From Thermoplasmatota archaeon (GTDB lineage: Archaea; Thermoplasmatota; Penumbrarchaeia; Penumbrarchaeales; EX4484-36), in assembly GCA_029932465.1 (NCBI GenBank), contig JAOZQA010000002.1, positions 18,992 to 82,991 of the forward strand: 64,000 nucleotides of DNA, written 5' to 3'. The position numbers were made by a program, and so were the translations under genes. This document shows positions 1,115-54,982 of this stretch, piece after piece; position 1 is the first letter of the stretch; every line of letters begins with the position of its first letter. Below the pieces are notes generated by a model, which ran no database searches, was not told the DNA's origin, and was given only the letters and a program-made list of their open reading frames with translations.

Positions 1115-1561
1115 GTGATGAAGATGGTCAGAGGCAGGGTTTTCACATGCATAGTCGCTGGTATTTCAATTATCCTCTCACTTGCTCTACTCTCAGGTTG
1201 GGCTTGTGCCGCAGAGGATGATAATGGCGAGAAAGAGGTTATAAAGAATGATAACGCGGAGCTATTTCTTTTTGTGATGCTTCTCTCCTTCGGTGTGGGG
1301 GCCATTATACTGGGGGCCTTCACCGCATATTTCGGGTCAGGAAAATCAAGGGTCTTCGGCGCACTCCTCACTGTCGCGGGTATCTTAGTCTACCTGAATT
1401 ACATCTACTTCAAGTTCATATCAAAGAGCAGCGACACACTTCTTGGCATAGTACACTGGAGCGAGTTCTCCTTCGTCAAGGTGCTGCTTGTAGTGGTTGG
1501 TTTCATCGTCGGCCTCATAATAGCCCTGGCCCTCTTCCTGGTGGGCATTATAAAATCCTGA
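1115..1561 (+). CDS. Small integral membrane protein (hypothetical)
   Basis: 148 aa; N-terminal hydrophobic segment and at least two further predicted TM helices; no recognisable motif. Confidence 0.4.
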   Translation: MMKMVRGRVFTCIVAGISIILSLALLSGWACAAEDDNGEKEVIKNDNAELFLFVMLLSFGVGAIILGAFTAYFGSGKSRVFGALLTVAGILVYLNYIYFKFISKSSDTLLGIVHWSEFSFVKVLLVVVGFIVGLIIALALFLVGIIKS

Positions 1562-2261
1562 CGTAGTATCTTAGCATCTTCTTTCTGAATATGGCTTCAA
1601 CAGGGCCCCCAAGTATGTAAAGAAAGATAAGATTGCTAGCTGCGTGTAGAGCGTCAAAGGGAAGGGACATTCCATAGACCAGGAGAACCGCTGAGAGTAT
1701 GGGTGGGTAGAAAATAAGCATTGAAAGGTTGGTTATCCATCCGTAGATGAAGGCAGAGATTATGGAGAAAGTGTAGAGGAAGAGGGGCTTGTTTTTAACC
1801 CTCGAGTAGAGGAAACCTGCGGAGTATCCCACTATGCCCCATCCGGCCATCATAAAGGGCGTATGTATGCCCTGGCCAAGGAACATGTTTGAGATCAGAG
1901 GCGTCATGATTCCAACGAAGCCCCCCATCTCAGGCCCGAATACAGCGCCTGCCATGATGATTATAAAGGTGGACGGCTGTACGGAGGGGAGGGGTGCAAA
2001 TAACACTCTCAGCCCAGAGGAAAGAGCGGAGAGAAGGGCAAGGAGTGCAACGTTCTGGGTGGTGAATCCTGACCTCTCAAGCTTATGAAGCGCCCCGACG
2101 GATGCTATAGAGACCAAGGCTGCGATCCAGTATATAGGGTTAATCTCTGAGTGAATTATGTCGGTGAGGGTGAGAAAGAAAAGGAATACTACTGCTAGAG
2201 ATGCTACGGAAAGAAGGCCAGAGACCACCCCTCCCCTAAACACCTTCTCCACCCCCATCAA
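1548..2261 (-). CDS. ECF transporter substrate-specific (S) component
   Basis: 237 aa, 5-6 TM helices; last gene of an S / fused A-A / T operon with overlapping stops and starts; substrate not identifiable from sequence. Confidence 0.5.
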   Translation of the reverse strand: MMGVEKVFRGGVVSGLLSVASLAVVFLFFLTLTDIIHSEINPIYWIAALVSIASVGALHKLERSGFTTQNVALLALLSALSSGLRVLFAPLPSVQPSTFIIIMAGAVFGPEMGGFVGIMTPLISNMFLGQGIHTPFMMAGWGIVGYSAGFLYSRVKNKPLFLYTFSIISAFIYGWITNLSMLIFYPPILSAVLLVYGMSLPFDALHAASNLIFLYILGGPVEAIFRKKMLRYYVRIL

Positions 2262-3756
2262 GAATTAGCACTTTATCCCCGAGAGAATCAAAGAGGTCAG
2301 TGTGCGTTGAAATTATGATAGTGGTGGTAGGAGATAGCTCTCCCAGCATCCGTTTCAGTGCTACGTATGATTTTCTGTCCATTCCCCGGGTGGGCTCATC
2401 TAAGAAGGTAATCTGTGGAAAGCCTATTAGGACGGATGCAATGGCAGCGCGCTGCCTCTGACCTGCGGACAGGTTGAAGGGGTCCTCCTTTTCTAGCCCT
2501 TCAAGATAGAGCGCCCGGATAAACTTTCTAGATGCAAAAGAGAATGGCTCGCTCCTCCTCCCCTTTGCCCAGGAGAGCCTCAGGTCCTCTATGAGAGTCT
2601 CACAGGTGAAGATGTCCATGGGGTTCTGCGGGAGGTAGCCCACCTTAAGGCCACTCCCACCTCTCCAACCACTCTCTCCAATCCAAGGGGCTTTAAGGAC
2701 ACCTCTCTGCGGTTTCACAAAACCTAGAAGGGTCCTGATGAGTGTTGTTTTCCCCGAGCCATTTCGACCTTTGATGAGGAACACCTCCCCCTCAAATATG
2801 GCGAAGGTAAGCCCCGTGAAGAGCTCCCGGTTCCCGCAGGAGACTTCAAGGGAGTGCACCTCTATAATGGGGCACCTCTTACGCACTTCATACCTCTCAC
2901 TTTTTCCTCTCTGCGGAACCTCTCTCCTTGAGCTTTTTCCGGACAGTCTGAGCCTACCACCTGGGTTTTCAGACCTTTTGAATTTAGTAGGGGAGGGGCT
3001 CCTCACTTCCAGTGGAGTCTCTGGGGTCCGAGACCAAGAGCGGACGTTATCCACACAGTGAACGGGTTCAGGAAGTGGCCCGATACGTCCTCCCTCCATT
3101 AAAAGAACTTTATTCGCCCTCTGAATCAGCTCCCAATATCCTTCGGGCGAGGGGGTGACGATCACAGCGGCCCCACCCTGACGCACCTTTTCAGTTAGAC
3201 ACCTTCGAAAAAGCTCCCTCCCCTCAGCATCAAGATGAGTCATGGGTTCATCCAGCAGATATAATTCAGAGGTGGATGCCTCAAGGTGGCTCAGAACCAG
3301 TCTCTGCTTCTCCCCCGCCGATAAGGTGGCGGTATGGGAGTTTGGGGAGATTTGGGGCAGCCACTTCCTGAGTGCTTTTTGGCCTAAAAGCTCCGCCTGG
3401 CGCAGTTTCGAGGATTCTTCAAGGTAAGGTACAGTGGCCTCTGTTATGGCCCGTCTGAAGATAATGTAATACTCCGGTTCTTGCGGCATGTAAAAGACCC
3501 TTCCCGGGACCTCATTTCTTTCCCTTCTTCTTTTCATGTTCTTCCCGAGCACCCTTACCTCTCCCGCTAGTGTCCCCCCGGTGAGGTAGGGCGAGATTCC
3601 GGAGAGCACCTTGAGAAGTGTGCTCTTTCCTGATCCAGAGCTGCCTATGATTAACACCAGCTCTCCACTTTCCACCTTGAGGTCAACCCCCCTCAGGACC
3701 TCGCCCTTTGCCATTGGATAGGTAAATTTAAGTCCTCTCGTCTTGACAAGGCTCAC
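2236..3756 (-). CDS. ecfA: ECF/ABC transporter ATPase, fused tandem EcfA-EcfA'
   Basis: 506 aa with two ABC ATPase modules: Walker A 'GSSGSGKST' and 'GRNGSGKTT', signature 'LSAGEKQR' and 'LSAGQRQR', Walker B 'LLDEP' and 'FLDEP'. Confidence 0.85.
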   Translation of the reverse strand: MSLVKTRGLKFTYPMAKGEVLRGVDLKVESGELVLIIGSSGSGKSTLLKVLSGISPYLTGGTLAGEVRVLGKNMKRRRERNEVPGRVFYMPQEPEYYIIFRRAITEATVPYLEESSKLRQAELLGQKALRKWLPQISPNSHTATLSAGEKQRLVLSHLEASTSELYLLDEPMTHLDAEGRELFRRCLTEKVRQGGAAVIVTPSPEGYWELIQRANKVLLMEGGRIGPLPEPVHCVDNVRSWSRTPETPLEVRSPSPTKFKRSENPGGRLRLSGKSSRREVPQRGKSERYEVRKRCPIIEVHSLEVSCGNRELFTGLTFAIFEGEVFLIKGRNGSGKTTLIRTLLGFVKPQRGVLKAPWIGESGWRGGSGLKVGYLPQNPMDIFTCETLIEDLRLSWAKGRRSEPFSFASRKFIRALYLEGLEKEDPFNLSAGQRQRAAIASVLIGFPQITFLDEPTRGMDRKSYVALKRMLGELSPTTTIIISTHTDLFDSLGDKVLILDGGGEGV

Positions 3757-4646
3757 CCCACCACCCCCTTCAGAAAATAGAGGGTATAGAGGATGTATAC
3801 AGCCCCCTGGAGCAGTCCAAAAGCCATTGAAGGAAGATGTGGGGAAACAAGAAGTGCGAGGACCTTTGGGAGGATCAGGACAATTACAGAGCCCGCTATT
3901 GCAAAGTACAGTGTGCCTCGGGGTGATCCCATCTTTGTCGAAGGGGGGACCTTTAATCGGAAAAGCCCTCTTGTCTCAAGGGACTCTGCCAAGATGTCGC
4001 TTCTTATGAAAGAGTCCCTAAGCAATGGAATGACTAGGGAGGCCCTGCTCCTGAAGGTCCGAAGGAAACCGGAGTCTTTTACCACCCCCCTCACCCTCTG
4101 AACTTCAAGAATGTTTTTGGCGTCCTCCTTCACCCGGGGGATGAGGTAGAAAGAGGATAGGACCATGAGCGGCAGTGCGGATGAGTGTCTTCTCAAAGTG
4201 AAGAAAAGGGCATCGCTGTCAGGCGTGAAGGTGAAAAGCCAGAAGAGGACCATAATGGAGGAAAGCTTCAAGGCGTTTTTGAGGGCGAATATGATTGCGG
4301 AGGAAGTAATATAAAGCGGTGGAAGGGGAGAGAGATCCAAAGCGAGGAGTGTACTTCCAGTGGGGGGGTAGAGAAGGACGTTGAAGAGAAAGACAATAGC
4401 GGAGAGCGGAAAGATGTATCTTAAGGCTTTGATAGTGCCTGTCCCCCTGCTGGGAGGTCTCGAGGATATCCAAAGGACCATCCCCACACTCCAGACGGAC
4501 ATAAATGTGAGGGCGGCAATGCTGGATGTGAGGAGAAGAACGATGGAGGAGAAGATGACGAGATAAGCTATGCTCTCCCACCTCAATATTCGCCTCTCTA
4601 GAGGTTCATATTGCGCCTTCTGAGTATATCCAGAGGATCTCGTCAC
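3753..4646 (-). CDS. ecfT: ECF transporter transmembrane (T) component, CbiQ/EcfT-like
   Basis: 297 aa polytopic membrane protein; position directly upstream of the fused ATPase with a 4-nt overlap. Confidence 0.6.
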   Translation of the reverse strand: MTRSSGYTQKAQYEPLERRILRWESIAYLVIFSSIVLLLTSSIAALTFMSVWSVGMVLWISSRPPSRGTGTIKALRYIFPLSAIVFLFNVLLYPPTGSTLLALDLSPLPPLYITSSAIIFALKNALKLSSIMVLFWLFTFTPDSDALFFTLRRHSSALPLMVLSSFYLIPRVKEDAKNILEVQRVRGVVKDSGFLRTFRSRASLVIPLLRDSFIRSDILAESLETRGLFRLKVPPSTKMGSPRGTLYFAIAGSVIVLILPKVLALLVSPHLPSMAFGLLQGAVYILYTLYFLKGVVG

Positions 4647-5040
4647 CGTCCTCCACCACCTTTCTGTCCGATGCCACCTCTCCGAAAACGTCGTTCACGT
4701 AGTAGACCCACCACTTGCTCCCCCCTCCTTCTACACCGGCGATCGCCTCCACGAACACCCCATATCTCTCTTTGTGATACTTCACAGTGAAATTGTACAT
4801 CTCTGAGGCTTTGAGAAGCAGTGAGAAGACCGTCTCACCCTCTTCAATCTCCACTTCCGTGAAGGTCCACACCCCACTACCCCCCACACCTCCCTGGGGG
4901 CTCTCACCATTGAAGTCGATTGTCAGTTCTACACTCCCTGGGCCACCACCCCCGCCGCCGCTAAAGCAACCTGAGAGGGCAGCAGTGAGAAAAGGCACGA
5001 TAAGGACTAGGAGGGGGGCGAGTCTACTCCTCAACCGCAC
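4606..5040 (-). CDS. DUF4430-like lipoprotein (transcobalamin-beta/BtuH-like fold candidate)
   Basis: 144 aa; signal peptide with lipobox-like 'LSGC'; Gly-rich linker; 'YGVFVEAIAGVEGGGSKWWVYYVNDVFGEVASDRKVVEDGDEILWIY' matches the DUF4430 pattern (yG.fV.sI.G...yW.y.VNg....ga....l.dGD.i.w.y). Confidence 0.55.
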   Translation of the reverse strand: MRLRSRLAPLLVLIVPFLTAALSGCFSGGGGGGPGSVELTIDFNGESPQGGVGGSGVWTFTEVEIEEGETVFSLLLKASEMYNFTVKYHKERYGVFVEAIAGVEGGGSKWWVYYVNDVFGEVASDRKVVEDGDEILWIYSEGAI

Positions 5041-6976
5041 CCCCCCAGGTATCGGTTCTTCTCATAAAGATGTATGCGGCTATGGCCGCGAAAAGTGCTA
5101 TCGGGATCGCAACGATCACGTAATAGCCGGGACCTAACCTGCCTCCCCCCTCCTCCCTCTCAACGGTCACCACCCACGTGTGGGAAAGCTCGACATCACC
5201 AAGTCTGACCATGGCAATTACATTGTGCTCCCCAGGGGGAAGGCTCACCTCAAGCGTTGCCCCCCCTCCGGCAACCTCTCCGTCCACGTACCAGGTGACC
5301 TCAACATCTTCTCCAAGTGCAGGCTCTAAAAGAGCGAAAGAGACCTCGTCCCCCACATACACATCCACGACATTTCTCCCCGGGGAGAAGACTATGTGGG
5401 GGAGGAGCTCCACAAAATGGAGATCCCCAGCATCTGTTGGGAGGTAGAGGCGGGATGTGTGCACAAGAGGGGTGGGGAATATCCAGTCGTTTGGTGTGGG
5501 CACATACGTGCCTAGGAGCTCCCCTTGGGAGGAATAGAAATAGAGGGTAGAGAGATTCCCCTCGCCTCCTGTATTGGTGACGAACACAACACCACCTCCG
5601 ACCGCAAGGGCAGAGGCGGTCACGGGCCCTTCAGCGGGAAGAGTCCTCACCTCCCCCGATGAGGCATCTACTAAATAAACGCCTCCGTCAAAACCCGCAG
5701 CGAGGGTCCATCTGCCATTCAGCTGAAATGCGTTGAAGGAGGAGGTCAGGGCGGTAGAGATGGTCTTCACCTTCTGGAGCTGGTGTGAGTTACCGTCGAT
5801 CCTGTATATCTCACTGATCTCCTCCCCAAAAGTTATGGAGAAATAGACAGCCCCCGGGCCAGTCACGAGGGGCGCTTTTATCGTCCCGTTTAAGCTCATC
5901 TCCCAGGCTACATCGCCGGTTGTGGTATTGACCGCGAAGATTTTTCCATCCCTTCCTCCCAAATATATCTCACCCTCGAGAAGTATGGGTGTGGAGAAAT
6001 AAAAAGTGGTATTGAGGTTCACTCTCCAGAGGATATCTCCATCGGGAGTTAGAGCCGTGAGGTTTCCATCGCCCCCGGCTAGATAAATGCATCTTTCGTC
6101 CGCTACAGGAGAGGAGGTCAGCCCCCAAGTGGAGTTATCCAACTTCAGCTTCTTGAACACCTCTCCTGTGGTGAGGTTTATAATGTAAAGGTTTCCATCG
6201 GTGGACGCTACATAAACCGACGAAGCCCTCACAAGGGGCGTGGAGAGCTCAAAACCTACGCCTCCCACTTCCCTCTCCCAGAGAATCTTTCCATCCCAGT
6301 CTAACAGAAAGAGGGAAGAGGGTCTCTCAAGTTTAAAGCTGGTATAGTTCATAACCCCGGAGGTGTACACCAGCAGGCCTTCTGGTGTGATTAGGGGAGA
6401 GGTGTCTATGGGCCCAGAGTCTAGGTGCGCCGTTCTTATCGGACGTATCTCCCAAACCCTCCAAGAGGGCCCTGGGGGATGAAGAACACCGCTGTAGGAG
6501 AGTACAGGAAGAGGGTATTCCGGCGTGGGATCAGGGGTCTCCCCGAAGGTGTGGCAGTAGAGGAAGGCAACAGCATCACCAGAGTCTACAGGGGTTGTAT
6601 CGGCCGATGTGGGGGTGTACTCCCACACACCACCTGAGGAGTTCCACTTGAGGACCGTCCAGAAATAGGAATAATCAGGGGGCGAGGAGACACCTCTTAT
6701 GGATTTGATATAGACTCCATAGGAGGAGTTCTCCCATTCCACCCTCCAACCTAGCCCCCCAGTGGCTTCAAGTAAGGCTTCGAAGGCGTTCTTAACACCT
6801 TTGGTCTCCACCCAGGCGAAGTCCGAGGGGGAGAAATAGATAAGGACGTCCACACCTTCCACACTTTGCGGAGTCTCGCCATCTGCTAGAGCGGATGGCA
6901 GAGTAGTAAGATGGAGAAGAAGAAACAGAACAACAGCGGACAAGATTACTTTTACAACAGCTCTCATACCGAACAC
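5024..6976 (-). CDS. Exported membrane-anchored protein: N-terminal DUF4430-like domain, PQQ/BamB-type beta-propeller repeats, Ig/PKD-like domain, C-terminal TM anchor
   Basis: 650 aa; signal peptide; N-terminal 'WRVEWENSSYGVYIKSIRGV...YFWTVLKWNSSGGVWEY...VDSGDAVAFLY' is DUF4430-like; repeated 'DG.L.A....G...W' propeller motifs; C-terminal 'YYVIVAIPIALFAAIAAYIFMRR' anchor. Confidence 0.5.
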   Translation of the reverse strand: MFGMRAVVKVILSAVVLFLLLHLTTLPSALADGETPQSVEGVDVLIYFSPSDFAWVETKGVKNAFEALLEATGGLGWRVEWENSSYGVYIKSIRGVSSPPDYSYFWTVLKWNSSGGVWEYTPTSADTTPVDSGDAVAFLYCHTFGETPDPTPEYPLPVLSYSGVLHPPGPSWRVWEIRPIRTAHLDSGPIDTSPLITPEGLLVYTSGVMNYTSFKLERPSSLFLLDWDGKILWEREVGGVGFELSTPLVRASSVYVASTDGNLYIINLTTGEVFKKLKLDNSTWGLTSSPVADERCIYLAGGDGNLTALTPDGDILWRVNLNTTFYFSTPILLEGEIYLGGRDGKIFAVNTTTGDVAWEMSLNGTIKAPLVTGPGAVYFSITFGEEISEIYRIDGNSHQLQKVKTISTALTSSFNAFQLNGRWTLAAGFDGGVYLVDASSGEVRTLPAEGPVTASALAVGGGVVFVTNTGGEGNLSTLYFYSSQGELLGTYVPTPNDWIFPTPLVHTSRLYLPTDAGDLHFVELLPHIVFSPGRNVVDVYVGDEVSFALLEPALGEDVEVTWYVDGEVAGGGATLEVSLPPGEHNVIAMVRLGDVELSHTWVVTVEREEGGGRLGPGYYVIVAIPIALFAAIAAYIFMRRTDTWGGAVEE

Positions 6977-7128
6977 CTTCCAATTAAAGCGTGCTTGAGC
7001 TGACTAAGGGTATGTTGATGTGCTACTTAATGGTTTCTGCGGGGTGAGAGGCCTTTTAGCTCCTTTCTTCCCAAAATTGGTTGAAGAGAGAAAAAGGGTT
7101 TAAATCCAACTTAACTTTCTTTATTAAC

Positions 7129-24104: not shown

Positions 24105-24661
24105 CCCTTACAGAGCCTTTCAGCCTTCTCTTTGATCTTTCTGGCGAGTGTGGGATTCATCCCCTCTACCCTGAGGAGGTCTCTAATCTCCGCCTCGGCG
24201 ACCTCTTCAAGCGTCCGGTAGCCGGCCGCATGGAGGGACTGAGCCCTCACCTCATCAAGTCCAAGGTACGCTCTGAAGAGGGATATCGCATCATCCCCTC
24301 CCGCCATTCTGTCAACATGCTTTGCGCTGATCACCCCTGCTTCTATCCTCCTCCCGTAGCTCTCTGAGAAGCCCTCCACCAAGGCGGCCTCCCCGTAGAG
24401 GAGCACTACACTCTGTTCGTTCACACTGACGCTTTTCAGTCCTATAAGCGCATTACCGCCCTTCTCCTGGACCTGTCTCAGGAGCTCCTCCATCGCCTCG
24501 TCAAAAAGCTCCTCCAGAAGAGGACCAGAGGGGGGCAGTCCAGGGACCTCCCCGGGGAGCTCTATTGCCTTCCTTACAATCCCAAGACGCCTCTTTATCT
24601 TCACCCCGGGAGGTGAATCAGAAAGGGTGATGAGCACCCTCTCACCTCCCTGCAGCCGCAA
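24101..24661 (-). CDS. YbjQ/UPF0145-domain protein fused to tandem helix-hairpin-helix motifs
   Basis: 186 aa; N-terminal YbjQ-like region ('RVLITLSDSPPGVKIKRRLGIVRKAI...GGNALIGLK'); C-terminal 'LGLDEVRAQSLHAAGYRTLEEV...LLRVEGMNPTLARKI' HhH pair. Confidence 0.5.
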   Translation of the reverse strand: MRLQGGERVLITLSDSPPGVKIKRRLGIVRKAIELPGEVPGLPPSGPLLEELFDEAMEELLRQVQEKGGNALIGLKSVSVNEQSVVLLYGEAALVEGFSESYGRRIEAGVISAKHVDRMAGGDDAISLFRAYLGLDEVRAQSLHAAGYRTLEEVAEAEIRDLLRVEGMNPTLARKIKEKAERLCKG

Positions 24662-27600
24662 TCCTTCTTTTCAGGTAAAGCCTCCTTATGACCTCAGCGG
24701 TGAGGAGACCTACGCCCGTTATAAAAAGGGCGTCCAGGAGGAGGGAGCCCTTCACCCGGTCAGGATGACTTTCGGCACCGAAGGGGGTGTGGCCGCCGAT
24801 GTTCACGGGGCTGCGGAGCGCCTCGGGCTGGCCCCAGGCGTGCATTGGCGAGAAGACCTTCAGGTCCGGATCCCCGTAGAAGACCAGGTTCTCGAAGATG
24901 TCCCACCACCAGGCGTCCAGCAGATACTCTATGCCCACGTGCGCTATCCCCCTCTCATATGCCTCACCCACGGTATAGTTGTAGTATATGTCCTTGACGA
25001 AGGTTTCCATGGCAAAGGAGGAGTACCAAGATGTGAGCCAGGGGTCTATAACCTGGAAGACGGAGCCGTGCCTGACGAGGGAGAGATGAAGGTAGGTATT
25101 AGCTATGAGGCAGCTGCCGGCCGAGAAGCCCATGGAGTGAATGTTATCAAGGGCTTCATCTATCTGTAGGCCGCGGTTGCTGTACTCGGTCTGGCGCTGC
25201 TGCAGGAGTGCTATGACCACTCCATCGTGTGTCTCAGGGATTATTCCGGCATCAGTCACAGGGCCGAACCCGGGCTGCACATCGAGACCTATATGCTTGT
25301 TCATTGTGGCCACGTCCGGGTCATCGGTAGCACCCCTGAGCCTCTGAAGGTCGCCGCTTACAGGAATCCCGTTCTCCTCATAACCCCTCCACGGGTCTCT
25401 TTCCTCGTTGGCGTCCGGGTTCCACCACCCCACTACTCCCGACTCAGTATGTCCTCCGTGCATGACCTCAAGCCACATGATGACCCCACGATTCAAGTTC
25501 TCCACTGTCCTCTCAAAGGTTGTTGTCTGAACATGGTCATACCCTATCTTCTCCAGGTAATAGGGGACCATCTCGGAGGTGTCTATGTCCGGCCAGACGC
25601 CATTGGGGTCTATTGGGTCATCTGAGGGGGTCTCCCCGGGGACTATCCCGGTCCTTGTTGTGTACTTGCACCCCCAGTACTCGCTCCCCCTCTCGTTGAA
25701 CTTGTACTGATAGGATACCCAGGTCTCCTGCACAGCATACCTAGTCTGAACCTCTCTCTCCTTCTCGACGATCCTGAGCACCCCTCCCACCCTGGTAGAG
25801 GAGGAACCCTGCCACCTCATCCCGTCATGCTCATCCAGGGCTGGGTTCACGGCAGGGTTAGCAAAAATGATCTGGGGGTAGAAGATGGAGCGGGAGATCC
25901 AGGCAGCGGCATCCACTGGAGAGCCCATGATTCTTCCAGCCTGGGCCGCCCCAACCAAGGCCCTGTCCCAGGAGGTGCCTATGTCGAATTGGTCCGCTAC
26001 GGTTATTATGCTCTCCTTCACCCCTTTTATTCCTCCTATCTCAGCTCCCATTTGCATGAGGAAGCTGTAGATTGCCTTTCCCTCAAGGACCATACAGCCC
26101 ACCGAGGGCGGGAGCCTGCTGGGGTAGGCCTTGAGCCAGAAGTTGTTGTGCCACGCCTGAGCCTGGGAGAGCCTTCGATGGACGTCTGTTATGAAGACGG
26201 GGCTGCCGTGGTGGGCAGCGGCTAGTGTGGCGGGGCCCACGAAGTATGCCCCGGGGAACTCCCCCTTAGGATTCTCCCTCCTCGCTGCAACGTACCAGTA
26301 GGACCAGGGGTCTACAGTAGTGAAGACTACATCGCCGGTGGGTTTCCCGTCGGTGCCGGCCCTGGAGATGATCTCACGATAGATATCCACGTAGGAGGTT
26401 ATCCTCTTAACCTTGATCTCCTTCTGCAGAAGCCCCCTCGCCCTGTCTATCCCCTTGAAAAGGCCCTCCCCAGCGTGTCCACCCAGGTCCACCACGTATA
26501 CCTTCTCCACGCCCAGCAGGTTAAGGGCATCTTTGACCTCACCCGGTAGCCTGCCATAAGGGACGTAGAGAAGAGGAGCGTTAAGAAGGGATGCCAGAAC
26601 CGCCCCATTGGTAGCCGAGGCAAAGGAGTCGCCCTCCCTCGGGTCTTTCACCTGCCTGAAAGAGTAGGAGAGCTTGAATTCGGTGGAGGAGCCTTCAAGG
26701 TTGACCACAGCCACCCTGTAGCGGCCCATGCCCAGGCTCTTCACTTCAAGAACCTGACGTCTGGACTGAGTAGAGTCCATCGCAGTTGTCACCTCAGCCC
26801 CGTTCTCATCCAGAAGGATTATTCCCAAGCGCGCCGAGGGGTCATCCCAGCTCACCTCAAAAGTGGCGTCCCTACTGTAGAACGGCACCTCATCGGGGAT
26901 GTCTATCTCCACCCCGGGGTAGAGTGTATAGTCTATTCTATAGTTCACCTCAGCGCTCCAAGGCTGTTCAGGATTCACCCTCTCCAAAATGCGGGGATTT
27001 CTCTCGAAGTAGTCTGTGAGGGCCTTCTGGTACTCATAGCTCTCGGTGGGCATGTAGGTGACGGCGAACTTCCACTCTCCGCTGTGGTAAACGTAGGAGG
27101 CGACGTGCTCCGAGGCGCCGGTTAGGACGTTCCATTCCTCAGAGGCGGCGACCTCTCCAAGCTGCATGTCGTAGAGCTGAAGGTCTGGATCCTTCCCCCG
27201 GGCGAGGAGCTCCCCAAGTTGCGTCTGGCTCCATGTCATAACGGCGTCTATGTACTTGTACCCCTCCCCAACTGTGAAGGGGTGCTCGTTGGGGTCCACT
27301 GGGGAGGGCATTTTGCTCCCTTCAACGCTGCCTTTTTCGGGACTCGCGGAGGGTGTGACCCCCTCAAGCTCCCCGGATATCTCCCTATCCGGCTGGGGTG
27401 GAGAGGGGTCTATCACCGCTATTACTGCTACTCGGGAATACTTCCAGCCATCCTTTGCCAGTGCTGCGGAGACCTCCCAGGGGCCCTCCCCCTCAATGGT
27501 GTTCACCTCCTCCGCCTTCCACTCTCCCCCAATCTGTGCGGGGGGAGTACTGAAACCCAAGAGATTGATTCTCTTCAAGGAGCCCCCGTTAACCGTGAGG

Positions 27601-27989
27601 ACATCCTCCATCAGGTACTTCACAGCGGGGTAGGAGTTGAGCGTCTTCTCCTCGTCGGATGTTGTCTCCCGGGGGGGAGTGTAGAAGAGAACGGGCGAGG
27701 AGACGATTTTATTGTCCTCCCGGCTGTAGAAGGTAGTGTAGGGGACAGCGGCGATGTAGTAGTAGTCGTCAAGAGCCCCCTCGGGGTCGTAGTTCACAAG
27801 AGTGGCAGAGCTCACCGGGACCACTCTCAGAGTGGAGACACCCTCAAATCCCGGGCTGGAAAGTCTGTCGGACTCCCTGCTGGAGGCGGAGGTGGAAAGC
27901 AGCGGAGGGAGGATTATCAAAGCCGCAATCAGAGTCATCAAAAGAAGTCTTCTCGGTCTCCCGCTGAGGACCTGCTTCATAATCATCAC
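24642..27989 (-). CDS. Large exported, C-terminally anchored protein with a putative transglutaminase-like/papain-like Cys-His-Asp core
   Basis: 1115 aa; Sec signal ('RRLLLMTLIAALIILPPLL'); C-terminal TM 'LFITGVGLLTAEVI'; candidate triad context 'GFSAGSCLIANTYLHLSLVRHG' ... 'AHVGIEY' ... 'FYGDPD'. Confidence 0.45.
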   Translation of the reverse strand: MMIMKQVLSGRPRRLLLMTLIAALIILPPLLSTSASSRESDRLSSPGFEGVSTLRVVPVSSATLVNYDPEGALDDYYYIAAVPYTTFYSREDNKIVSSPVLFYTPPRETTSDEEKTLNSYPAVKYLMEDVLTVNGGSLKRINLLGFSTPPAQIGGEWKAEEVNTIEGEGPWEVSAALAKDGWKYSRVAVIAVIDPSPPQPDREISGELEGVTPSASPEKGSVEGSKMPSPVDPNEHPFTVGEGYKYIDAVMTWSQTQLGELLARGKDPDLQLYDMQLGEVAASEEWNVLTGASEHVASYVYHSGEWKFAVTYMPTESYEYQKALTDYFERNPRILERVNPEQPWSAEVNYRIDYTLYPGVEIDIPDEVPFYSRDATFEVSWDDPSARLGIILLDENGAEVTTAMDSTQSRRQVLEVKSLGMGRYRVAVVNLEGSSTEFKLSYSFRQVKDPREGDSFASATNGAVLASLLNAPLLYVPYGRLPGEVKDALNLLGVEKVYVVDLGGHAGEGLFKGIDRARGLLQKEIKVKRITSYVDIYREIISRAGTDGKPTGDVVFTTVDPWSYWYVAARRENPKGEFPGAYFVGPATLAAAHHGSPVFITDVHRRLSQAQAWHNNFWLKAYPSRLPPSVGCMVLEGKAIYSFLMQMGAEIGGIKGVKESIITVADQFDIGTSWDRALVGAAQAGRIMGSPVDAAAWISRSIFYPQIIFANPAVNPALDEHDGMRWQGSSSTRVGGVLRIVEKEREVQTRYAVQETWVSYQYKFNERGSEYWGCKYTTRTGIVPGETPSDDPIDPNGVWPDIDTSEMVPYYLEKIGYDHVQTTTFERTVENLNRGVIMWLEVMHGGHTESGVVGWWNPDANEERDPWRGYEENGIPVSGDLQRLRGATDDPDVATMNKHIGLDVQPGFGPVTDAGIIPETHDGVVIALLQQRQTEYSNRGLQIDEALDNIHSMGFSAGSCLIANTYLHLSLVRHGSVFQVIDPWLTSWYSSFAMETFVKDIYYNYTVGEAYERGIAHVGIEYLLDAWWWDIFENLVFYGDPDLKVFSPMHAWGQPEALRSPVNIGGHTPFGAESHPDRVKGSLLLDALFITGVGLLTAEVIRRLYLKRRIAAAGR

Positions 27990-39923: not shown

Positions 39924-42900
39924 ATGAATTTGCATGGGACGCAGGTGATGGTGTTTGTTGCGGCGAGTGTGCTTTCTCTTGCTATCCTGACCACTGCATT
40001 CACCCAGAACGGCGATCAGGAGCTGAAAGAGGGGGAGCTACATGTGGGCGAAGGTTATGAGTTCCCCTCAGTTCAGATCGCTATAGATTCAGCGGCGGAG
40101 GGCTCTACAATCGTGGTGCACTCAGGTGAGTACCATGAGAGACTTTTCATCTATCGTGGAATAACCCTTAAAGCTGCCCCGGGGGAAAGCTTTCATCTTG
40201 CGGCATCCTCCGATGACCCCGGCCCTCCCGGGACAAGGGGTGCAGCCCTCATTATCACATCCTCTTCCCCCGTGACCATCAACGGGGGTACCTACTCCTA
40301 CTCGGGAGGCACGTGGAACGATGCCGCCATAAAGATCCAGTATGGTTATGGACATACGATCCAGAACGCAAATATCAAAGACAGCAAACAAGGCATTTGG
40401 GTTCACGGAGGGGACTTAAGAACATCTCTCTCCTGTGGGAACATAAGGATCTCAGGCAACACAATTCAGAACATAAGTGGCCATGGAATATACCTGCAGA
40501 GGTCCTATGCCAATATCTACGGTAACACCATCTCTCTATGTGGGGAGGGCATTATGGTGGCCCACGGGTACACCTCCTCCGGTGGGGGAATATGGGGCAA
40601 CGAGATTCACAACTCAACCGTTGGAGTCTTCCTTGAAAGCGACTGGGTTCCCAAACTTGATCAGAACACCTTTTCTGACTGCCAATGGGGTGTTTACCTT
40701 AACGATACCTCTTCCCCTCTTACCTTAAACAACAATGACTATTACCGCTGCTCAGTGGGAATGTTCTATCGGGGAAGCAACGGACCGATACTCGACCAAG
40801 AGGTATATTATAATTGCACCACTGCCCTTCACACAGGAGCGGCAGGAGGGGGGAAGCTTATTGTGCGCTCCTGCGAAATTTACGGATCAGAGGGCTACTC
40901 AATAAACCTCACAACGCAGATTGACGCACGGGGATTGAGGGTGGTAGGGGCAGGGGGTACCCTTTTCAAACTGGGAAATAATGGTGACATTTCCATTCAC
41001 GATTCCTATCTGGAGACCTCCAGAGAGTCCTTGAGGGCCATAGGCACTGGAAGCATTACCATGATGAACACCACCTTAAGCTCTCTCTCCCGCTCCTTTG
41101 TCTCAGAAGATTCTGTCCTGGTGGAACTGAGCCAATGCAACTTTACCTCCCGGGAGAACAGCTTTGTTATGGAGGGGGGTGGGAGCCTTCACTCAGCGAA
41201 TTCTGATTTTACCTCCACATCCGGTAGGGCCCTTAAGCTTTCCAATTTGACGAGGTCCTATCTTCAGGGCGGCGGTGCATTCTCCGACGGGGCTCAGGTG
41301 ATATACCTCTTCCGATGCGTGGATTTCAATCTAAACAATGTTAAGATAACAGGGAGCAATGGTGCCGGGCTTTTCCTGAAGGAATCGCAGAGGGTCTTAG
41401 CCTCCTATCTGAGGATAGATGGAAACCTCTCGGAGGGGATTATAATTACCGGCGAAGGCCAGGATTTCCTCAGACACACTATCGGAGAGACGAACACCTT
41501 CGGCGGCAAGCCCATATACTATATCTATGGGGAGAGCGGGGGGGTCTTCAACCTAACGGATAAAGGTGAGGTGATCATAGCAGGCACAACGGACGCTGTT
41601 ATAAGAGAAGTGGGGTGTTCCCCAGGCTCTACGTGGGTTCTTGGATCTCAGAATGTGACCTTTCTCAACTCAACCCTTGAACAGGGCCTCCATACAATAG
41701 ATTCCAGTGATATCAACGGCGAAAACCTTCTTCTCAGGCCCTCCTCTTATTCAGGAGTCTCCCTCCTTATGGAGAACTCTACACTTCACCTCTTCAACTC
41801 AACGCTCTTTGAGGGCATAGGGAGCTCGGAAACCTTCTACCTCTCCCGCTCCTCCCGGGCCCACTTCTACAACACCACCTTTTCAGGCTACGGATACATA
41901 GACTCCTCCACCCTTACCACCTACCATCTGATTGGACTTAAGGTCCTCTTCTCCGACGATGTAGCAGCCCCCGGGGTGGAGTATCTCCTGAGCCTAGATA
42001 ATTCAACCTTCCGCGCCACTGCCCTCTTTTCAGGGACTTCCCCTCCAACGGATGAGAACGGCACAGCAGGCCCATGGTGGATCCCGCACATTACCTATGA
42101 TGATTCCTCCCTGACCGAACATCTCTTTACAATAACGGTGAACGCAACTGTGGATAGGTCATGGCAGGAGGAGAGGAGCGTCAATACCTCCTTTGACCAT
42201 ATTGAGGTTTTTAGGACCTCAGACATAAGAGCACCGGCGATACCTTCAGGCGTTGAAGCGCATCCAGTGGAAGGGGGAGATGAGATCCTTATCACCTGGA
42301 AAGACAACGAGGACGACACGGACCTCTACAGGGTCTATCTGGTTGGAAACACCCTTCAGCTTCTCGGAGAGAGCACTAGCGCCTCCTTCAGGGATGTGGG
42401 GGTTGAGAATGGCACTTCAAGGACCTACAGGGTCAGTGCAGTGGACGAAGAGGGAATAGAAAGCGACCTCTCGCCTCCCGTCACGGCAATTGCAAGGGAT
42501 TACGTACCCCCAGAGAGGCCCTCATCCCTGTGGGTGGTAGGATACGGCGGAATAAACGCCACACTTCTTTGGTCGGAATCGTCCTCAGAGGACGTGGTCA
42601 TTTACAGGATTTTTGTGGCCATGGGAAGGAGAGGGGGTGGGGGAATAGAAGGTTTCCTTCTGGCAGGAGAGACCACGGATAACACCTTTGAGGTTTTTGA
42701 CCTCCTTCCGGAGACCGAATACACCCTCACAGTGCTCGCCTATGATGAGGCTTCCAATCCCTCCCTCCCAGCTCCCATGGCGTACATCACAACCCCAGAC
42801 ATAACGTGGCCTGTTGTCTCAAACCTCACATGGAAGGTTGACCTTTATCAGGTAACGGTGGAGTGGGACACCGATCAGGTGACGCAGGGGACTCTGCATC

Positions 42901-43748
42901 TGGGCACCTCCACTGAGAACATGCAAGAATATAGCGAGGAGGAATATTCACTTCACCACACGATTTTTGTGGATCGTCTAGCCCATAACGCTACATATTA
43001 CTTCTGGGTCTATTCGGAGGAGCCTTCAGGGAACAGCGTCGCAGATGACAACGGGGGGAACTTCTACACATTTAAGACACCACCCTTTGAAGGCTACCTG
43101 AGAATTGAAATTCTATCTTCAAGAGACGGTACTTTTATCACAGGCGCCGCCGTCAGGGCTTCGGGGAGAAGCGCTCAAATGGGCCTCGCTGAGATCTCCC
43201 CCGGGGTCTATTCGGGAACACTTGAGCCGGGCCCCTGGACAATCAGTGTAAACGCAGATGGGTTCGTCTCTCCATCTCCCTTCGATGTGGAGGTTAAGAT
43301 CCTCAAGTGGACCAACTTGACGCTCAACATGACACCCGCCGGGCCTCCATTATGTAACCTTTCAATAAGGATTGTGGATAAGGACGGTAGGGGAATTGAA
43401 GGGGCTTCTCTCACCTTTGAAGGGATGGAGTACACCTCTGATGAGGATGGGTGGGTCCACCTGGGTTATGTACCATCTAACGCCACATATACCCTCACGG
43501 TGGAGGGCGAAGGCTACAATAAAAGGAGCGTTAAGGTGGAGATTCCCTACGGAGAGGAGGAGGTGGAGGAGAAGATAACCCTGAAGAAGGAGGGAGGAGG
43601 GTCCCTTCTTTGGTTGGCAGTGCTCCTGATAGCTTTAGTTGGAGCCCTAGGGGCGGTTTTTTACATGAGAAGCAGAGGGAAGGGGGAGGCAAAAGCCAAG
43701 GAAAGACCCCCAGAGGAGGAGCCGGAGGTTAAGAGCGGGAAGGTGTGA
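39924..43748 (+). CDS. Giant surface protein: signal peptide, right-handed parallel beta-helix (pectate-lyase/NosD-like) repeats, FN3/Ig-like and carboxypeptidase-regulatory-like domains, C-terminal TM anchor
   Basis: 1274 aa; repeated 'GN.I.......GI.L' beta-helix motifs; FN3-like 'YRVYLVGNT...YRVSAVDEEGIESDLS'; very many N-x-S/T sequons; C-terminal 'LLWLAVLLIALVGALGAVFYMRSRGK' then a charged tail. Confidence 0.7.
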   Translation: MNLHGTQVMVFVAASVLSLAILTTAFTQNGDQELKEGELHVGEGYEFPSVQIAIDSAAEGSTIVVHSGEYHERLFIYRGITLKAAPGESFHLAASSDDPGPPGTRGAALIITSSSPVTINGGTYSYSGGTWNDAAIKIQYGYGHTIQNANIKDSKQGIWVHGGDLRTSLSCGNIRISGNTIQNISGHGIYLQRSYANIYGNTISLCGEGIMVAHGYTSSGGGIWGNEIHNSTVGVFLESDWVPKLDQNTFSDCQWGVYLNDTSSPLTLNNNDYYRCSVGMFYRGSNGPILDQEVYYNCTTALHTGAAGGGKLIVRSCEIYGSEGYSINLTTQIDARGLRVVGAGGTLFKLGNNGDISIHDSYLETSRESLRAIGTGSITMMNTTLSSLSRSFVSEDSVLVELSQCNFTSRENSFVMEGGGSLHSANSDFTSTSGRALKLSNLTRSYLQGGGAFSDGAQVIYLFRCVDFNLNNVKITGSNGAGLFLKESQRVLASYLRIDGNLSEGIIITGEGQDFLRHTIGETNTFGGKPIYYIYGESGGVFNLTDKGEVIIAGTTDAVIREVGCSPGSTWVLGSQNVTFLNSTLEQGLHTIDSSDINGENLLLRPSSYSGVSLLMENSTLHLFNSTLFEGIGSSETFYLSRSSRAHFYNTTFSGYGYIDSSTLTTYHLIGLKVLFSDDVAAPGVEYLLSLDNSTFRATALFSGTSPPTDENGTAGPWWIPHITYDDSSLTEHLFTITVNATVDRSWQEERSVNTSFDHIEVFRTSDIRAPAIPSGVEAHPVEGGDEILITWKDNEDDTDLYRVYLVGNTLQLLGESTSASFRDVGVENGTSRTYRVSAVDEEGIESDLSPPVTAIARDYVPPERPSSLWVVGYGGINATLLWSESSSEDVVIYRIFVAMGRRGGGGIEGFLLAGETTDNTFEVFDLLPETEYTLTVLAYDEASNPSLPAPMAYITTPDITWPVVSNLTWKVDLYQVTVEWDTDQVTQGTLHLGTSTENMQEYSEEEYSLHHTIFVDRLAHNATYYFWVYSEEPSGNSVADDNGGNFYTFKTPPFEGYLRIEILSSRDGTFITGAAVRASGRSAQMGLAEISPGVYSGTLEPGPWTISVNADGFVSPSPFDVEVKILKWTNLTLNMTPAGPPLCNLSIRIVDKDGRGIEGASLTFEGMEYTSDEDGWVHLGYVPSNATYTLTVEGEGYNKRSVKVEIPYGEEEVEEKITLKKEGGGSLLWLAVLLIALVGALGAVFYMRSRGKGEAKAKERPPEEEPEVKSGKV

Positions 43749-54873: not shown

Positions 54874-54982
54874 GGCGCAGAGGGGGGGATTTGAACCCCC
54901 GAGGAGCAGAAGCTCCACGAGCTTTCTGGACGAGCCAGGATGTTCTCCAGGCTCGCGCCTTACCGGGCTTAGCTACCTCTGC
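54874..54982 (-). tRNA. tRNA-Ser (anticodon GGA inferred), class II with long variable arm and a ~21-nt intron in the anticodon loop
   Basis: 7-bp acceptor stem GCAGAGG/CCTCTGC, discriminator G, T-arm GGGGG-TTCAAAT-CCCCC, variable stem-loop GGAGC-TTCT-GCTCC, anticodon stem CGAGC/GCTCG enclosing 'CTGGAG' plus an insert whose 'TCCAG' can pair with the loop (BHB-like). Confidence 0.7.

What the first reader, a model, noticed from the sequence alone, without database searches (positions are those of the whole stretch)
5024..6976. DUF4430-like domain fused to a PQQ/BamB-type beta-propeller, Ig-like domain and C-terminal anchor
The sequence shows a signal peptide, an N-terminal DUF4430-like module, at least six 'DG.L.A...G...W' propeller blades, an Ig/PKD-like domain and a C-terminal TM tail. 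In Bacteroides, B12 capture uses two separate lipoproteins: BtuG, a beta-propeller, and BtuH, a DUF4430 protein. Here both folds appear to sit in one archaeal polypeptide, beside a second stand-alone DUF4430 lipoprotein. If the assignment holds, this is an unreported fusion architecture for ligand capture at an archaeal cell surface.
Basis: inference. Interest (0 to 1): 0.65.

Follow-up and report, generated by a model that had tools for sequence, protein, structure and literature searches.

The report
Archaeal surface accessory protein of ECF importer
This gene encodes a membrane-anchored archaeal surface protein with a transcobalamin-like domain on top of an eight-bladed propeller, and it always sits at the head of an operon for a likely vitamin-B12-type importer; the general design was predicted in 2007, so it is a new archaeal variant and not a new kind of system.

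Summary
ORF 5024-6976 (-) encodes a signal peptide, a roughly 100-aa N-terminal domain, an 8-bladed PQQ_2/BamB-type propeller, an Ig-like domain and a C-terminal TM anchor. Pfam misses the N-terminal domain. It is still a divergent DUF4430/transcobalamin-beta-like (SLBB) domain:
- BLASTP against the neighbouring DUF4430 lipoprotein gives E 3e-6.
- The AF2 model has pLDDT 91.6, and its 19 best PDB matches are all a DUF4430 protein, transcobalamin, haptocorrin or intrinsic factor.

The gene heads a tight operon: fusion, DUF4430 lipoprotein, CbiQ-type T, fused double ATPase, S-component. The S-component's only strong solved relative is CbrT, the B12-specific ECF S-component (E 3.7e-23). This gene order recurs in about 10 loci from Thermoplasmatota-type archaea at 22-27% protein identity.

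- BtuH is not a DUF4430 protein.
- The propeller is not BtuG-like (8 blades against 7, different family).
- SLBB-propeller fusions, paralogous SLBB partners and CbiO/CbiQ linkage were described in 2007.

The same divergent domain is fused to SCO1 and ZnuA proteins in Poseidoniales, so direct B12 binding by this domain is uncertain.

Best reading: an extracellular accessory subunit of a corrinoid ECF importer. Interest is moderate.

The parts
5024..6976 (-). Whole ORF of the fusion protein: 650 aa from GTG 6976, more likely 647 aa from ATG 6967. The stop codon is 5024-5026.
6884..6967 (-). Signal peptide, residues 4-31, with predicted cleavage after SALA.
   Evidence: Read from the sequence. 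The hydrophobicity maximum is at the N-terminus in all family members.
6548..6856 (-). Divergent DUF4430 / transcobalamin-beta-like SLBB domain ('N-type'), residues ~41-143. It is a beta-grasp fold with a beta-hairpin insert after the helix. W106, W111 and W118 are invariant.
   Evidence: Pfam PF14478 does not detect it.
6467..6547 (-). Pro-rich linker leading into the first strand of the propeller, residues 144-170. P148 and P152 are nearly invariant.
5396..6466 (-). Eight-bladed PQQ_2/BamB-type beta-propeller, residues ~171-527.
5162..5395 (-). Ig-like beta-sandwich domain, residues ~528-605. Homologues have CARDB or PKD at this position.
5063..5125 (-). C-terminal transmembrane anchor, residues 618-638. 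It is preceded by a Gly-rich linker and GPGYY, and followed by a 12-residue tail that begins with RR.
4606..5040 (-). Stand-alone canonical DUF4430 lipoprotein (144 aa, LSGC lipobox). It overlaps the fusion gene by 17 nt.
   Evidence: PF14478, E 3.9e-14. A stand-alone DUF4430 gene immediately follows the fusion gene in every related locus where the DNA after the fusion gene could be read (L001-L008, L010); in L011 nothing was detected downstream.
3753..4646 (-). ECF T-component (CbiQ family, 297 aa).
   Evidence: PF02361, E 3e-12.
2236..3756 (-). Fused double ABC ATPase (ECF A-A', 506 aa, two ABC_tran domains).
1548..2261 (-). ECF S-component (237 aa), CbrT-like.
   Evidence: PF12822/PF07155; 6fnp_A, E 6.5e-9, the only significant PDB hit; family profile against 6fnp_A, E 3.7e-23.

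Best explanation
The 650-aa protein is the membrane-anchored extracellular accessory subunit of a dedicated CbrT-type ECF importer, most likely for a corrinoid (the vitamin B12 family), in a Thermoplasmatota-type archaeon.

Shown:
- It is a type-I surface protein. From the membrane outward it consists of a TM helix, an Ig-like domain, an 8-bladed BamB-type propeller, and a transcobalamin-beta-like SLBB domain at the distal tip.
- It is co-transcribed, with overlapping genes, with a membrane-tethered canonical DUF4430 protein, an ECF T-component, a fused A-A' ATPase and a CbrT-like S-component.
- This gene set is conserved among very divergent relatives.

Inferred:
- One or both SLBB proteins capture the ligand outside the cell, as the transcobalamin beta domain does for cobalamin.
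- They hand the ligand to the S-component, and the ATPase-driven ECF module imports it.
- The propeller-Ig-TM part mainly positions or docks the capture domain and is not itself a B12 site.
For: Architecture.

SLBB assignment:
- BLASTP against the neighbouring DUF4430 protein gives E 3e-6.
- A family profile hits the Pfam-positive DUF4430 neighbours.
- With a PDB sequence profile, the top three hits are intrinsic factor and haptocorrin beta domains, though weak at E~0.2.
- The AF2 model has pLDDT 91.6 and shows the hairpin insert after the helix that defines the transcobalamin-like clade (PMC1796856).
- Foldseek: 3u7z at E 3.7e-7 and TM 0.84, then the transcobalamin beta domain with and without cyanocobalamin (5np4, 5no0), then haptocorrin and intrinsic factor.

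Operon:
- The genes are tightly packed or overlapping.
- The order fusion, DUF4430, CbiQ, A-A', S recurs in L003, L004, L006 and L008. L001 shows the first three genes before its contig ends. L005 and L010 have fusion, DUF4430, S. Fusion-protein identity is only 22-27%.

Ligand:
- The S-component family profile matches CbrT of the B12/cobinamide transporter ECF-CbrT (6FNP; PMC5997447) at E 3.7e-23 over 168 of 182 residues. The next S-component scores 7.6e-4 and FolT 3.4.

Precedent: Burroughs et al. 2007 inferred B12 or precursor scavenging for surface SLBB proteins in CbiO/CbiQ operons.
Against: - No binding or transport data exist for any prokaryotic member.
- There is no cobalamin riboswitch in the window or in nine related loci. 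This is weak evidence, because archaea rarely use them.
- No B12-dependent or B12-biosynthetic gene was seen next to the operon in any locus.
- The N-type SLBB domain also occurs in Poseidoniales on SCO1/SenC proteins (63 loci) and ZnuA proteins (12 loci), with no ECF genes nearby. There a B12-binding role is unlikely.
- A related ECF system with transcobalamin-like proteins in L. sakei was assigned to heme (10.1101/864751).
- Burroughs et al. cautioned that archaeal versions might scavenge another metabolite.
- The arrangement of the domains relative to each other in the full-length model is unreliable, because the N-terminal part has pLDDT 24-60.
Confidence: 0.5

Rival explanations
1. Scaffold only. 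The protein belongs to the same ECF operon and complex but does not bind the ligand. Its N-type SLBB domain and propeller mediate protein-protein or surface (glycan, S-layer) contacts. Ligand capture is done by the canonical DUF4430 lipoprotein and the S-component.
For: - The N-type domain is a promiscuous extracellular module. It is found on SCO1/SenC and ZnuA proteins in 75 Poseidoniales loci and as five tandem copies in P0034.
- It is too divergent for PF14478, whereas the neighbouring protein is canonical.
- The propeller class (PQQ_2/BamB) is the generic building block of thousands of archaeal surface proteins: 30,615 hits, many of them giant multi-propeller proteins.
- Its closest solved relatives are scaffolds such as BamB.
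- The columns conserved across the family propeller are blade-motif residues only: W233, S289, G340, W358.
- Burroughs et al. suggested that the fused extra domains tether SLBB proteins to the surface.
Against: - The SLBB domain sits at the membrane-distal tip, not in a stalk position.
- It keeps the full transcobalamin-like topology, including the ligand-contacting hairpin, at high model confidence.
- The fusion with an 8-bladed propeller has been kept across very divergent members.
Confidence: 0.25
2. Different ligand. The operon imports heme, another metallo-tetrapyrrole or a metal chelate and not a cobamide, with the SLBB proteins acting as its extracellular binders.
For: - The L. sakei Lsa1836-1840 ECF-like system, which has transcobalamin alpha- and beta-like proteins, was assigned to heme uptake (10.1101/864751).
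- The N-type domain is associated with Cu (SCO1) and Zn/Mn (ZnuA) proteins.
- 3u7z was deposited as a 'putative metal binding protein'.
- Burroughs et al. raised a caveat about archaea that make their own B12.
- There is no riboswitch and no B12 gene nearby.
Against: - The only solved S-component with strong similarity is CbrT, for which hemin did not compete with cobalamin uptake (PMC5997447).
- No CbiM/NikM-type metal S-component is present.
- The fold's characterised ligands are cobalamins.
Confidence: 0.2
3. One reading: a convergent one-polypeptide equivalent of Bacteroides BtuG plus BtuH, in which both the propeller face and the DUF4430 domain bind B12.
For: - Propellers can bind B12 on one face. 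BtuG and BtuK1 do so, and BT1490 fuses a B12-binding propeller to a second B12-binding domain (PMC13616437).
- Transcobalamin needs a second domain to sandwich B12, and no alpha/alpha toroid is encoded here.
- The propeller fusion is conserved.
Against: - The propeller has 8 blades and is of the PQQ_2/BamB family, against the 7-bladed BtuG. No BtuG or BtuK appears among the PDB sequence or fold hits.
- BtuH is unrelated to DUF4430.
- No conserved non-structural residues were detected in the propeller.
Confidence: 0.08
4. An unrelated surface protein (adhesin or S-layer component) that lies next to the transporter genes by chance.
For: Propeller-Ig-TM proteins are very common in these archaea. 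Another one lies close by on the same contig (L002, the 1376-aa protein).
Against: - The same gene order is found in about 10 independent loci at 22-27% identity, with overlapping reading frames.
- The fusion gene is followed by a DUF4430 gene in every locus where the downstream DNA could be read.
Confidence: 0.04

Closest known systems
Transcobalamin-like SLBB surface proteins of bacteria and archaea in CbiO/CbiQ operons (Burroughs, Balaji, Iyer & Aravind 2007, Biol Direct 2:4; later Pfam DUF4430)
   Same: - A secreted or surface-anchored beta-grasp domain with the hairpin insert.
- Fusion to extracellular domains, including a beta-propeller (Clostridium gi 28210494) and Ig domains (Archaeoglobus).
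- A second paralogous SLBB protein in the same operon.
- Linkage to a CbiO-type ATPase and CbiQ.
- A predicted role in scavenging B12 or its precursors.
   Different: - This is a Thermoplasmatota-specific family.
- Its SLBB domain is N-terminal and too divergent for PF14478.
- It always combines with an 8-bladed PQQ_2-type propeller, a CARDB/PKD-type domain and a C-terminal TM anchor.
- It is linked to a CbrT-like S-component, which was not known in 2007.
- Whether the Clostridium propeller is of the same type could not be checked.
Beta domain of mammalian transcobalamin, intrinsic factor and haptocorrin (PDB 5NP4, 2BB5, 2PMV, 4KKI)
   Same: The same fold and topology: Foldseek probability 1.0, with TM 0.70-0.71 to the isolated beta domain. 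There is weak profile similarity across the hairpin and the ...YW.L motif.
   Different: - Sequence identity is 13-18%.
- There is no alpha/alpha toroid partner domain, and the neighbouring domain is a propeller instead.
- The protein is membrane-anchored.
- Ligand binding is untested.
ECF-CbrT vitamin B12 importer of Lactobacillus delbrueckii (PDB 6FNP; Santos et al. 2018)
   Same: The S-component is homologous (E 3.7e-23), and both systems have a CbiQ/EcfT-type T-component and two ATPase domains.
   Different: - Here the module is a dedicated operon with a fused A-A' ATPase.
- It has two extracellular accessory proteins. ECF-CbrT was characterised without any extracellular binding protein.
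Bacteroides BtuG, BtuGH (BT1490) and BtuK1 surface B12-binding lipoproteins
   Same: They are surface-tethered proteins with a propeller, accessory to a B12 importer. BtuGH and BtuK1 combine a propeller with a further domain (a B12-binding BtuH domain or a PKD domain).
   Different: - They have 7-bladed propellers of unrelated families.
- They cap a TonB-dependent outer-membrane transporter.
- The BtuH domain is a ~270-aa novel fold, not DUF4430.
- No homology was detected.
Lactobacillus sakei Lsa1836-1840 ECF-like system with transcobalamin alpha- and beta-like proteins
   Same: An ECF operon that encodes extracellular transcobalamin-like accessory proteins.
   Different: It has a separate alpha-toroid protein and no propeller. 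It is bacterial and was assigned to heme uptake.

Membership tests
Pfam DUF4430 (PF14478) / transcobalamin-like SLBB clade | A match to the PF14478 profile above the gathering score | tested here: not met
   There is no PF14478 hit for the N-terminal 132 aa, even at E<=10. None of the precomputed Pfam lists for the eight fusion homologues includes it.
Pfam DUF4430 (PF14478) / transcobalamin-like SLBB clade | Sequence homology to bona fide members | tested here: met
   - BLASTP against the adjacent PF14478-positive protein: E 3e-6.
- The domain-family HMM hits the PF14478-positive neighbours in six distinct loci (seven counting L002) at E 4e-11 to 2e-3.
- Tandem-repeat relatives P0034, P0052 and P0063 hit PF14478 at E 3.8e-29 to 2e-13.
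Pfam DUF4430 (PF14478) / transcobalamin-like SLBB clade | [quoted passage not shown] | tested here: met
   The AF2 model (pLDDT 91.6) shows two strands, a helix, a hairpin and three further strands. The definition comes from PMC1796856.
Pfam DUF4430 (PF14478) / transcobalamin-like SLBB clade | Structural similarity to solved members | tested here: met
   Foldseek against PDB: 3u7z at E 3.7e-7 and TM 0.84. The transcobalamin beta domain, haptocorrin and intrinsic factor fill all remaining hits with E<=1e-3.
Pfam DUF4430 (PF14478) / transcobalamin-like SLBB clade | Binding of cobalamin or another corrinoid | not testable with these tools
   This needs purified protein.
BtuG (Bacteroides B12-binding propeller lipoprotein) | A seven-bladed propeller | tested here: not met
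   Eight blades: the model has 32 strands, and the best fits are the 8-bladed Cake8, Tako8 and BamB. The 7-blade definition of BtuG comes from PMC13616437.
BtuG (Bacteroides B12-binding propeller lipoprotein) | Detectable sequence or fold relationship to BtuG structures | tested here: not met
   No BtuG chain appears among the 49 PDB sequence hits at E<=1, nor among the top 50 Foldseek hits.
BtuG (Bacteroides B12-binding propeller lipoprotein) | Partnership with a BtuB TonB-dependent transporter | tested here: not met
   The operon encodes ECF components only. The host is an archaeon, as shown by an intron-containing tRNA, a class I LysRS and homologues found in Thermoplasmatota MAGs.
BtuH | A ~270-aa C-terminal globular B12-binding domain | tested here: not met
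   The domain here is a ~100-aa beta-grasp. No BtuH structure appears among the hits. The definition comes from PMC8941943.
CbrT-type ECF importer (whole operon) | An S-component homologous to CbrT | tested here: met
   6fnp_A at E 6.5e-9 with a single sequence and E 3.7e-23 with the family profile over residues 8-175 of 182. Other S-components score no better than 7.6e-4.
CbrT-type ECF importer (whole operon) | A T-component of the CbiQ/EcfT family and two ABC ATPase domains | tested here: met
   PF02361 at E 3e-12, and two ABC_tran stretches in one 506-aa protein.
CbrT-type ECF importer (whole operon) | ATP-dependent transport of cobalamin or cobinamide | not testable with these tools
   This needs a transport or complementation assay.
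PQQ-dependent dehydrogenase | A match to PF01011 above the gathering score | tested here: not met
   PF01011 scores 15.3 bits against a cutoff of 26.7, and TIGR03075 scores 23 against 480.
PQQ_2 / BamB-type eight-bladed propeller | A PF13360 match above the gathering score, and eight blades | tested here: met
   PF13360 scores 65.3 bits against 27.6. BamB, YxaL and Cake8 are the top structural hits.

The most novel reading that the evidence does not exclude
Thermoplasmatota archaea equip an ECF transporter, a class usually described as working without extracellular binding proteins, with a two-protein surface capture relay: an SLBB-propeller fusion plus a DUF4430 lipoprotein. The divergent 'N-type' SLBB domain would be a lineage-wide capture or hand-off module for metals and metallocofactors, reused on three unrelated systems: the CbrT-type ECF importer, ZnuABC, and the SCO1 copper chaperone of cytochrome oxidase.
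Probability: 0.2. Interest if true: 0.65.

Novelty: new variant of a known kind. Interest (0 to 1): 0.4.

Why it matters
No archaeal vitamin B12 uptake system has been characterised experimentally, and ECF transporters are generally treated as independent of binding proteins. This conserved five-gene operon gives a concrete, testable candidate for archaeal corrinoid uptake that uses extracellular accessory proteins.

It also shows that current annotation misses the transcobalamin-like domain. Databases call these proteins 'PQQ-like propeller' or 'BamB'. The same hidden domain is common in the abundant marine Poseidoniales. The basic idea (SLBB surface proteins, some fused to propellers, in CbiO/CbiQ operons) has been in print since 2007, so the advance is incremental.

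Tried and rejected
1. Pfam and NCBIfam on the N-terminal region gave no DUF4430 hit. The assignment had to be made through homologues and structure.
2. The search for homologous proteins with the 132-aa domain and with the 16-sequence domain alignment returned nothing.
3. The first AF2 job, full length with a 3-sequence alignment, left the N-terminal domain unmodelled at pLDDT 24-60. It was solved by modelling the domain alone with 16 homologues.
4. The search for related loci with the diverse domain alignment failed for lack of a conserved stretch. The run with the 3 close sequences found no GTDB relative, so the window's own lineage is not among the species representatives.
5. The Rfam search for a cobalamin riboswitch in the window and in nine related loci found only tRNAs.
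7. Rodionov et al. 2009 (PMC2612444) is not held, so the identity of 'cbrS' in the L. delbrueckii nrdJ-cbrS-cbrT-pduO cluster could not be checked.
8. A PQQ-dehydrogenase remnant was considered and rejected (PF01011 is below its cutoff).
9. BtuG or BtuH membership was considered and rejected (see the membership table).
Full report
**1. What is at the coordinates**

ORF 5024-6976 (-) encodes 650 aa. The real start is probably ATG 6967 (residue M4). A GGAAGGTG motif lies 6 nt upstream, and the listed GTG falls inside that motif. The 99%-identical metagenomic gene call P0001 also starts at the ATG.

The product has these parts:
- A hydrophobic signal sequence ending in SALA|DG.
- A ~100-aa N-terminal domain.
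- A Pro-rich linker.
- A propeller. PF13360 PQQ_2 scores 65 bits, above its cutoff of 27.6. PF01011 PQQ scores 15 bits, below its cutoff.
- A beta-sandwich region with only sub-threshold Pfam hits (Cadherin-like, E 0.004).
- A Gly-rich spacer.
- A TM helix, residues 618-638, followed by RR.

The propeller has eight blades. The full-length model shows 32 strands between residues 176 and 525. Its best structural matches are the 8-bladed designer proteins Cake8 and Tako8 (TM 0.84-0.86), BamB and YxaL. No BtuG or BtuK is among the top 50. PDB sequence search agrees, returning Cake designs, 3hxj, YxaL and BamB.

**2. Is the N-terminal domain DUF4430-like?**

Pfam says no, even at E<=10. Four independent lines of evidence say yes.
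- BLASTP against the adjacent 144-aa protein, which is a canonical DUF4430 (PF14478, E 3.9e-14), gives E 3e-6 and 25% identity over 111 residues.
- An exhaustive HMMER search of 1.84 billion representatives recovered about a dozen clusters with the same N-terminal domain plus propeller: P0024, P0038, P0042, P0043, P0046, P0059, P0067, P0082, P0114, P0117, P0125 and P0141.
  - It also recovered proteins made of tandem copies of the domain (P0034, P0052, P0063), which hit PF14478 at E 3.8e-29 to 2e-13.
  - An HMM of the domain family hits the Pfam-positive stand-alone DUF4430 neighbours in six distinct loci (seven counting L002) at E 4e-11 to 2e-3.
- Against PDB sequences, the top three hits of the domain profile are the beta domains of intrinsic factor and haptocorrin. 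These hits are weak, at E~0.2.
- AlphaFold2 with the 16-sequence domain alignment gives pLDDT 91.6.
  - The topology is two strands, a helix, a hairpin and three strands. That is a beta-grasp with the post-helix hairpin that defines the transcobalamin-like SLBB clade (PMC1796856).
  - All 19 Foldseek PDB hits with E<=1e-3 are 3u7z (a Ruminococcus gnavus DUF4430 protein, TM 0.84), the isolated transcobalamin beta domain (5no0, 5np4), full transcobalamin, haptocorrin or intrinsic factor.

I call this divergent subfamily the 'N-type' domain. Its motif is AP.D[FY]SW[WY]W.L..WN.[ST]..WE, and W106, W111 and W118 are invariant.

**3. Context**

The gene is the first of five tightly packed or overlapping minus-strand genes:
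- the fusion gene;
- a DUF4430 lipoprotein (4606-5040, LSGC lipobox);
- a CbiQ-family ECF T-component (3753-4646);
- a fused double ABC ATPase (2236-3756);
- an ECF S-component (1548-2261).

The S-component's only significant solved relative is chain A of 6FNP (E 6.5e-9). A profile of six orthologous S-components raises this to E 3.7e-23 over residues 8-175 of 182. The next best S-components score 7.6e-4 (4hzu_S) and 3.4 (FolT). 6FNP is ECF-CbrT, the cobalamin/cobinamide-specific ECF transporter of L. delbrueckii, in which hemin does not compete with cobalamin (PMC5997447). The 182-aa 'membrane protein' chain is taken to be CbrT.

**4. Conservation**

Family members share only 22-27% identity with the query, yet the gene order is kept.
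- Fusion, DUF4430, CbiQ, A-A', S is found in L003, L004, L006 and L008.
- L001 (63% identity) has fusion, DUF4430 and a T-like ORF that runs to the contig end.
- L005 and L010 have fusion, DUF4430 and an S-component (DUF6580 type), without T or A genes.
- L007 has fusion and DUF4430, and then the contig ends.

All full-length members have an N-terminal signal, a C-terminal TM helix with a basic tail, 15-28 N-X-S/T sequons per 1000 residues, and a CARDB or PKD domain where the query has its Ig-like region.

Named carriers are 'Candidatus Thermoplasmatota archaeon' (MEW5759964.1, annotated only as a PQQ-like propeller), 'Thermoplasmata archaeon' and 'Methanobacteriota archaeon' MAGs. JGI annotations call these proteins BamB.

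The window itself is archaeal. It carries an intron-containing tRNA and a class I LysRS. Its own lineage was not found among the GTDB representatives.

**5. Comparison with what is known**

- BtuH binds B12 through a ~270-aa domain with no known structural homologues and no predicted domains (PMC8941943). It is not a DUF4430 protein.
- BtuG is a seven-bladed propeller, and BT1490 (BtuGH) already fuses it to a BtuH domain (PMC13616437).
- The correct reference for the N-terminal domain is the transcobalamin beta domain.

The claim that the architecture is unreported also fails. Burroughs et al. 2007 (PMC1796856) described the following:
- the transcobalamin-like SLBB clade in bacteria and archaea;
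- its signal peptides and surface anchors;
- fusions to Ig domains (Archaeoglobus), fasciclin (Methanosarcina) and a beta-propeller (Clostridium);
- operons with a second paralogous SLBB protein and with CbiO/CbiQ genes.

They proposed scavenging of B12 or its precursors, with a caveat for archaea that synthesise B12. A related L. sakei ECF system with transcobalamin-like proteins was assigned to heme (10.1101/864751).

What is new here:
- It is a distinct archaeal family whose SLBB domain is invisible to Pfam.
- It has a fixed SLBB, 8-blade PQQ_2 propeller, Ig, TM architecture.
- It is linked to a CbrT-like S-component.

**6. A complication found on the way**

A scan of GTDB species genomes with family patterns returned 80 loci.
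- Only two (L010, L011) carry the propeller fusion.
- About 75 are Poseidoniales (Marine Group II) loci in which the same N-type domain sits in other proteins.
  - In 63 loci it lies C-terminal to a SCO1/SenC copper-chaperone domain, mostly as two copies. In the one example whose neighbours were examined (L057), it lies next to a COX3 gene.
  - In 12 loci it lies in a ~940-1150-aa ZnuA-domain protein, which is followed by an ABC ATPase in 11 of them. An ABC-3 permease gene was confirmed downstream in the one example examined (L030).
- No canonical DUF4430, CbiQ or CbrT-like gene accompanies these proteins.

The N-type domain is therefore a reusable extracellular module associated with metal or metallocofactor systems, and is not a dedicated B12 binder. 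This lowers confidence that the N-terminal domain of the 650-aa protein binds the ligand itself. It raises the possibility that the canonical DUF4430 lipoprotein is the actual binder.

**7. Mechanism**

Most likely (about 0.5): the protein is the extracellular accessory subunit of a dedicated CbrT-type ECF importer for a corrinoid.
- Shown: the architecture, the fold, membership of the operon and its conservation, and the similarity of the S-component to CbrT.
- Inferred: the identity of the ligand, capture by one or both SLBB proteins, hand-off to the S-component, and a positioning or docking role for the propeller-Ig-TM part.

Rivals:
- Scaffold only (0.25).
- Another ligand such as heme or a metal chelate (0.2).
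- A BtuG-plus-BtuH-like dual binder (0.08).
- An unrelated neighbour (0.04).

Evidence against a B12 role:
- There is no cobalamin riboswitch.
- There are no B12 genes in the flanks.
- The N-type domain occurs in the Poseidoniales contexts described above.

The propeller is not a PQQ-dehydrogenase remnant; it is a generic BamB-type surface propeller. Only blade-motif residues are conserved in it across the family. Whether it has a ligand pocket could not be assessed.

**8. Verdict**

This is a new archaeal variant of a kind of system predicted in 2007 and still untested experimentally. Interest is moderate, at 0.4.

Noticed in passing
L012-L089 (e.g. L057 7425-8948; L030 6702-9515): The divergent N-type SLBB domain is common in Poseidoniales (Marine Group II) genomes, but on other proteins. 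In 63 loci it follows a SCO1/SenC copper-chaperone domain, usually as two copies; the one example examined (L057) lies next to a COX3 gene. In 12 loci it sits in a large ZnuA-domain protein, which is followed by an ABC ATPase in 11 of them; an ABC-3 permease was confirmed downstream in L030. No ECF genes are nearby.
   Followed up: partly
L009 313-2853 (P0034): An 846-aa protein made of five tandem N-type SLBB domains plus a CarboxypepD_reg domain. PF14478 scores E 3.8e-29. P0052 and P0063 are similar.
   Followed up: partly
L005 7800-10984; L010 7785-10863: An operon variant with fusion, DUF4430 and S-component (DUF6580 type) but no adjacent T or ATPase genes. This suggests use of a shared ECF module encoded elsewhere.
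   Followed up: partly
window 6967-6990: The listed GTG start (6976) lies inside an RBS-like GGAAGGTG motif. ATG 6967 is the more likely start and matches the gene call for P0001.
   Followed up: yes
window 5063-5140: The C-terminal anchor is preceded by a conserved GPGYY motif and followed by RR, which resembles PGF-CTERM-type archaeosortase signals. The NCBIfam scan of the whole protein listed only four propeller-related families at E<=0.01.
   Followed up: no
L001 3050-3499: A CbiQ-like ORF on the plus strand follows the DUF4430 gene. The public gene call annotated short minus-strand genes there instead.
   Followed up: partly
window 1115-1561 (+): A 148-aa predicted membrane protein with no Pfam or NCBIfam hit, convergent with the end of the ECF operon. 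It is conserved on the near-identical contig L002.
   Followed up: no
window 24642-27989 (-): An 1115-aa ORF with a signal sequence and a C-terminal TM helix but no Pfam family at E<=1e-4.
   Followed up: no
window 39924-43748 (+); 58995-63893 (-): Two further very large surface proteins. One combines NosD/beta-helix, fn3 and CarboxypepD_reg domains. The other is a 1632-aa S8 subtilase with PKD and Big_5 domains and a C-terminal TM helix.
   Followed up: no
window 54876-54982 (-): A 107-nt tRNA gene, presumably containing an intron. It is the only Rfam hit in the window.
   Followed up: no
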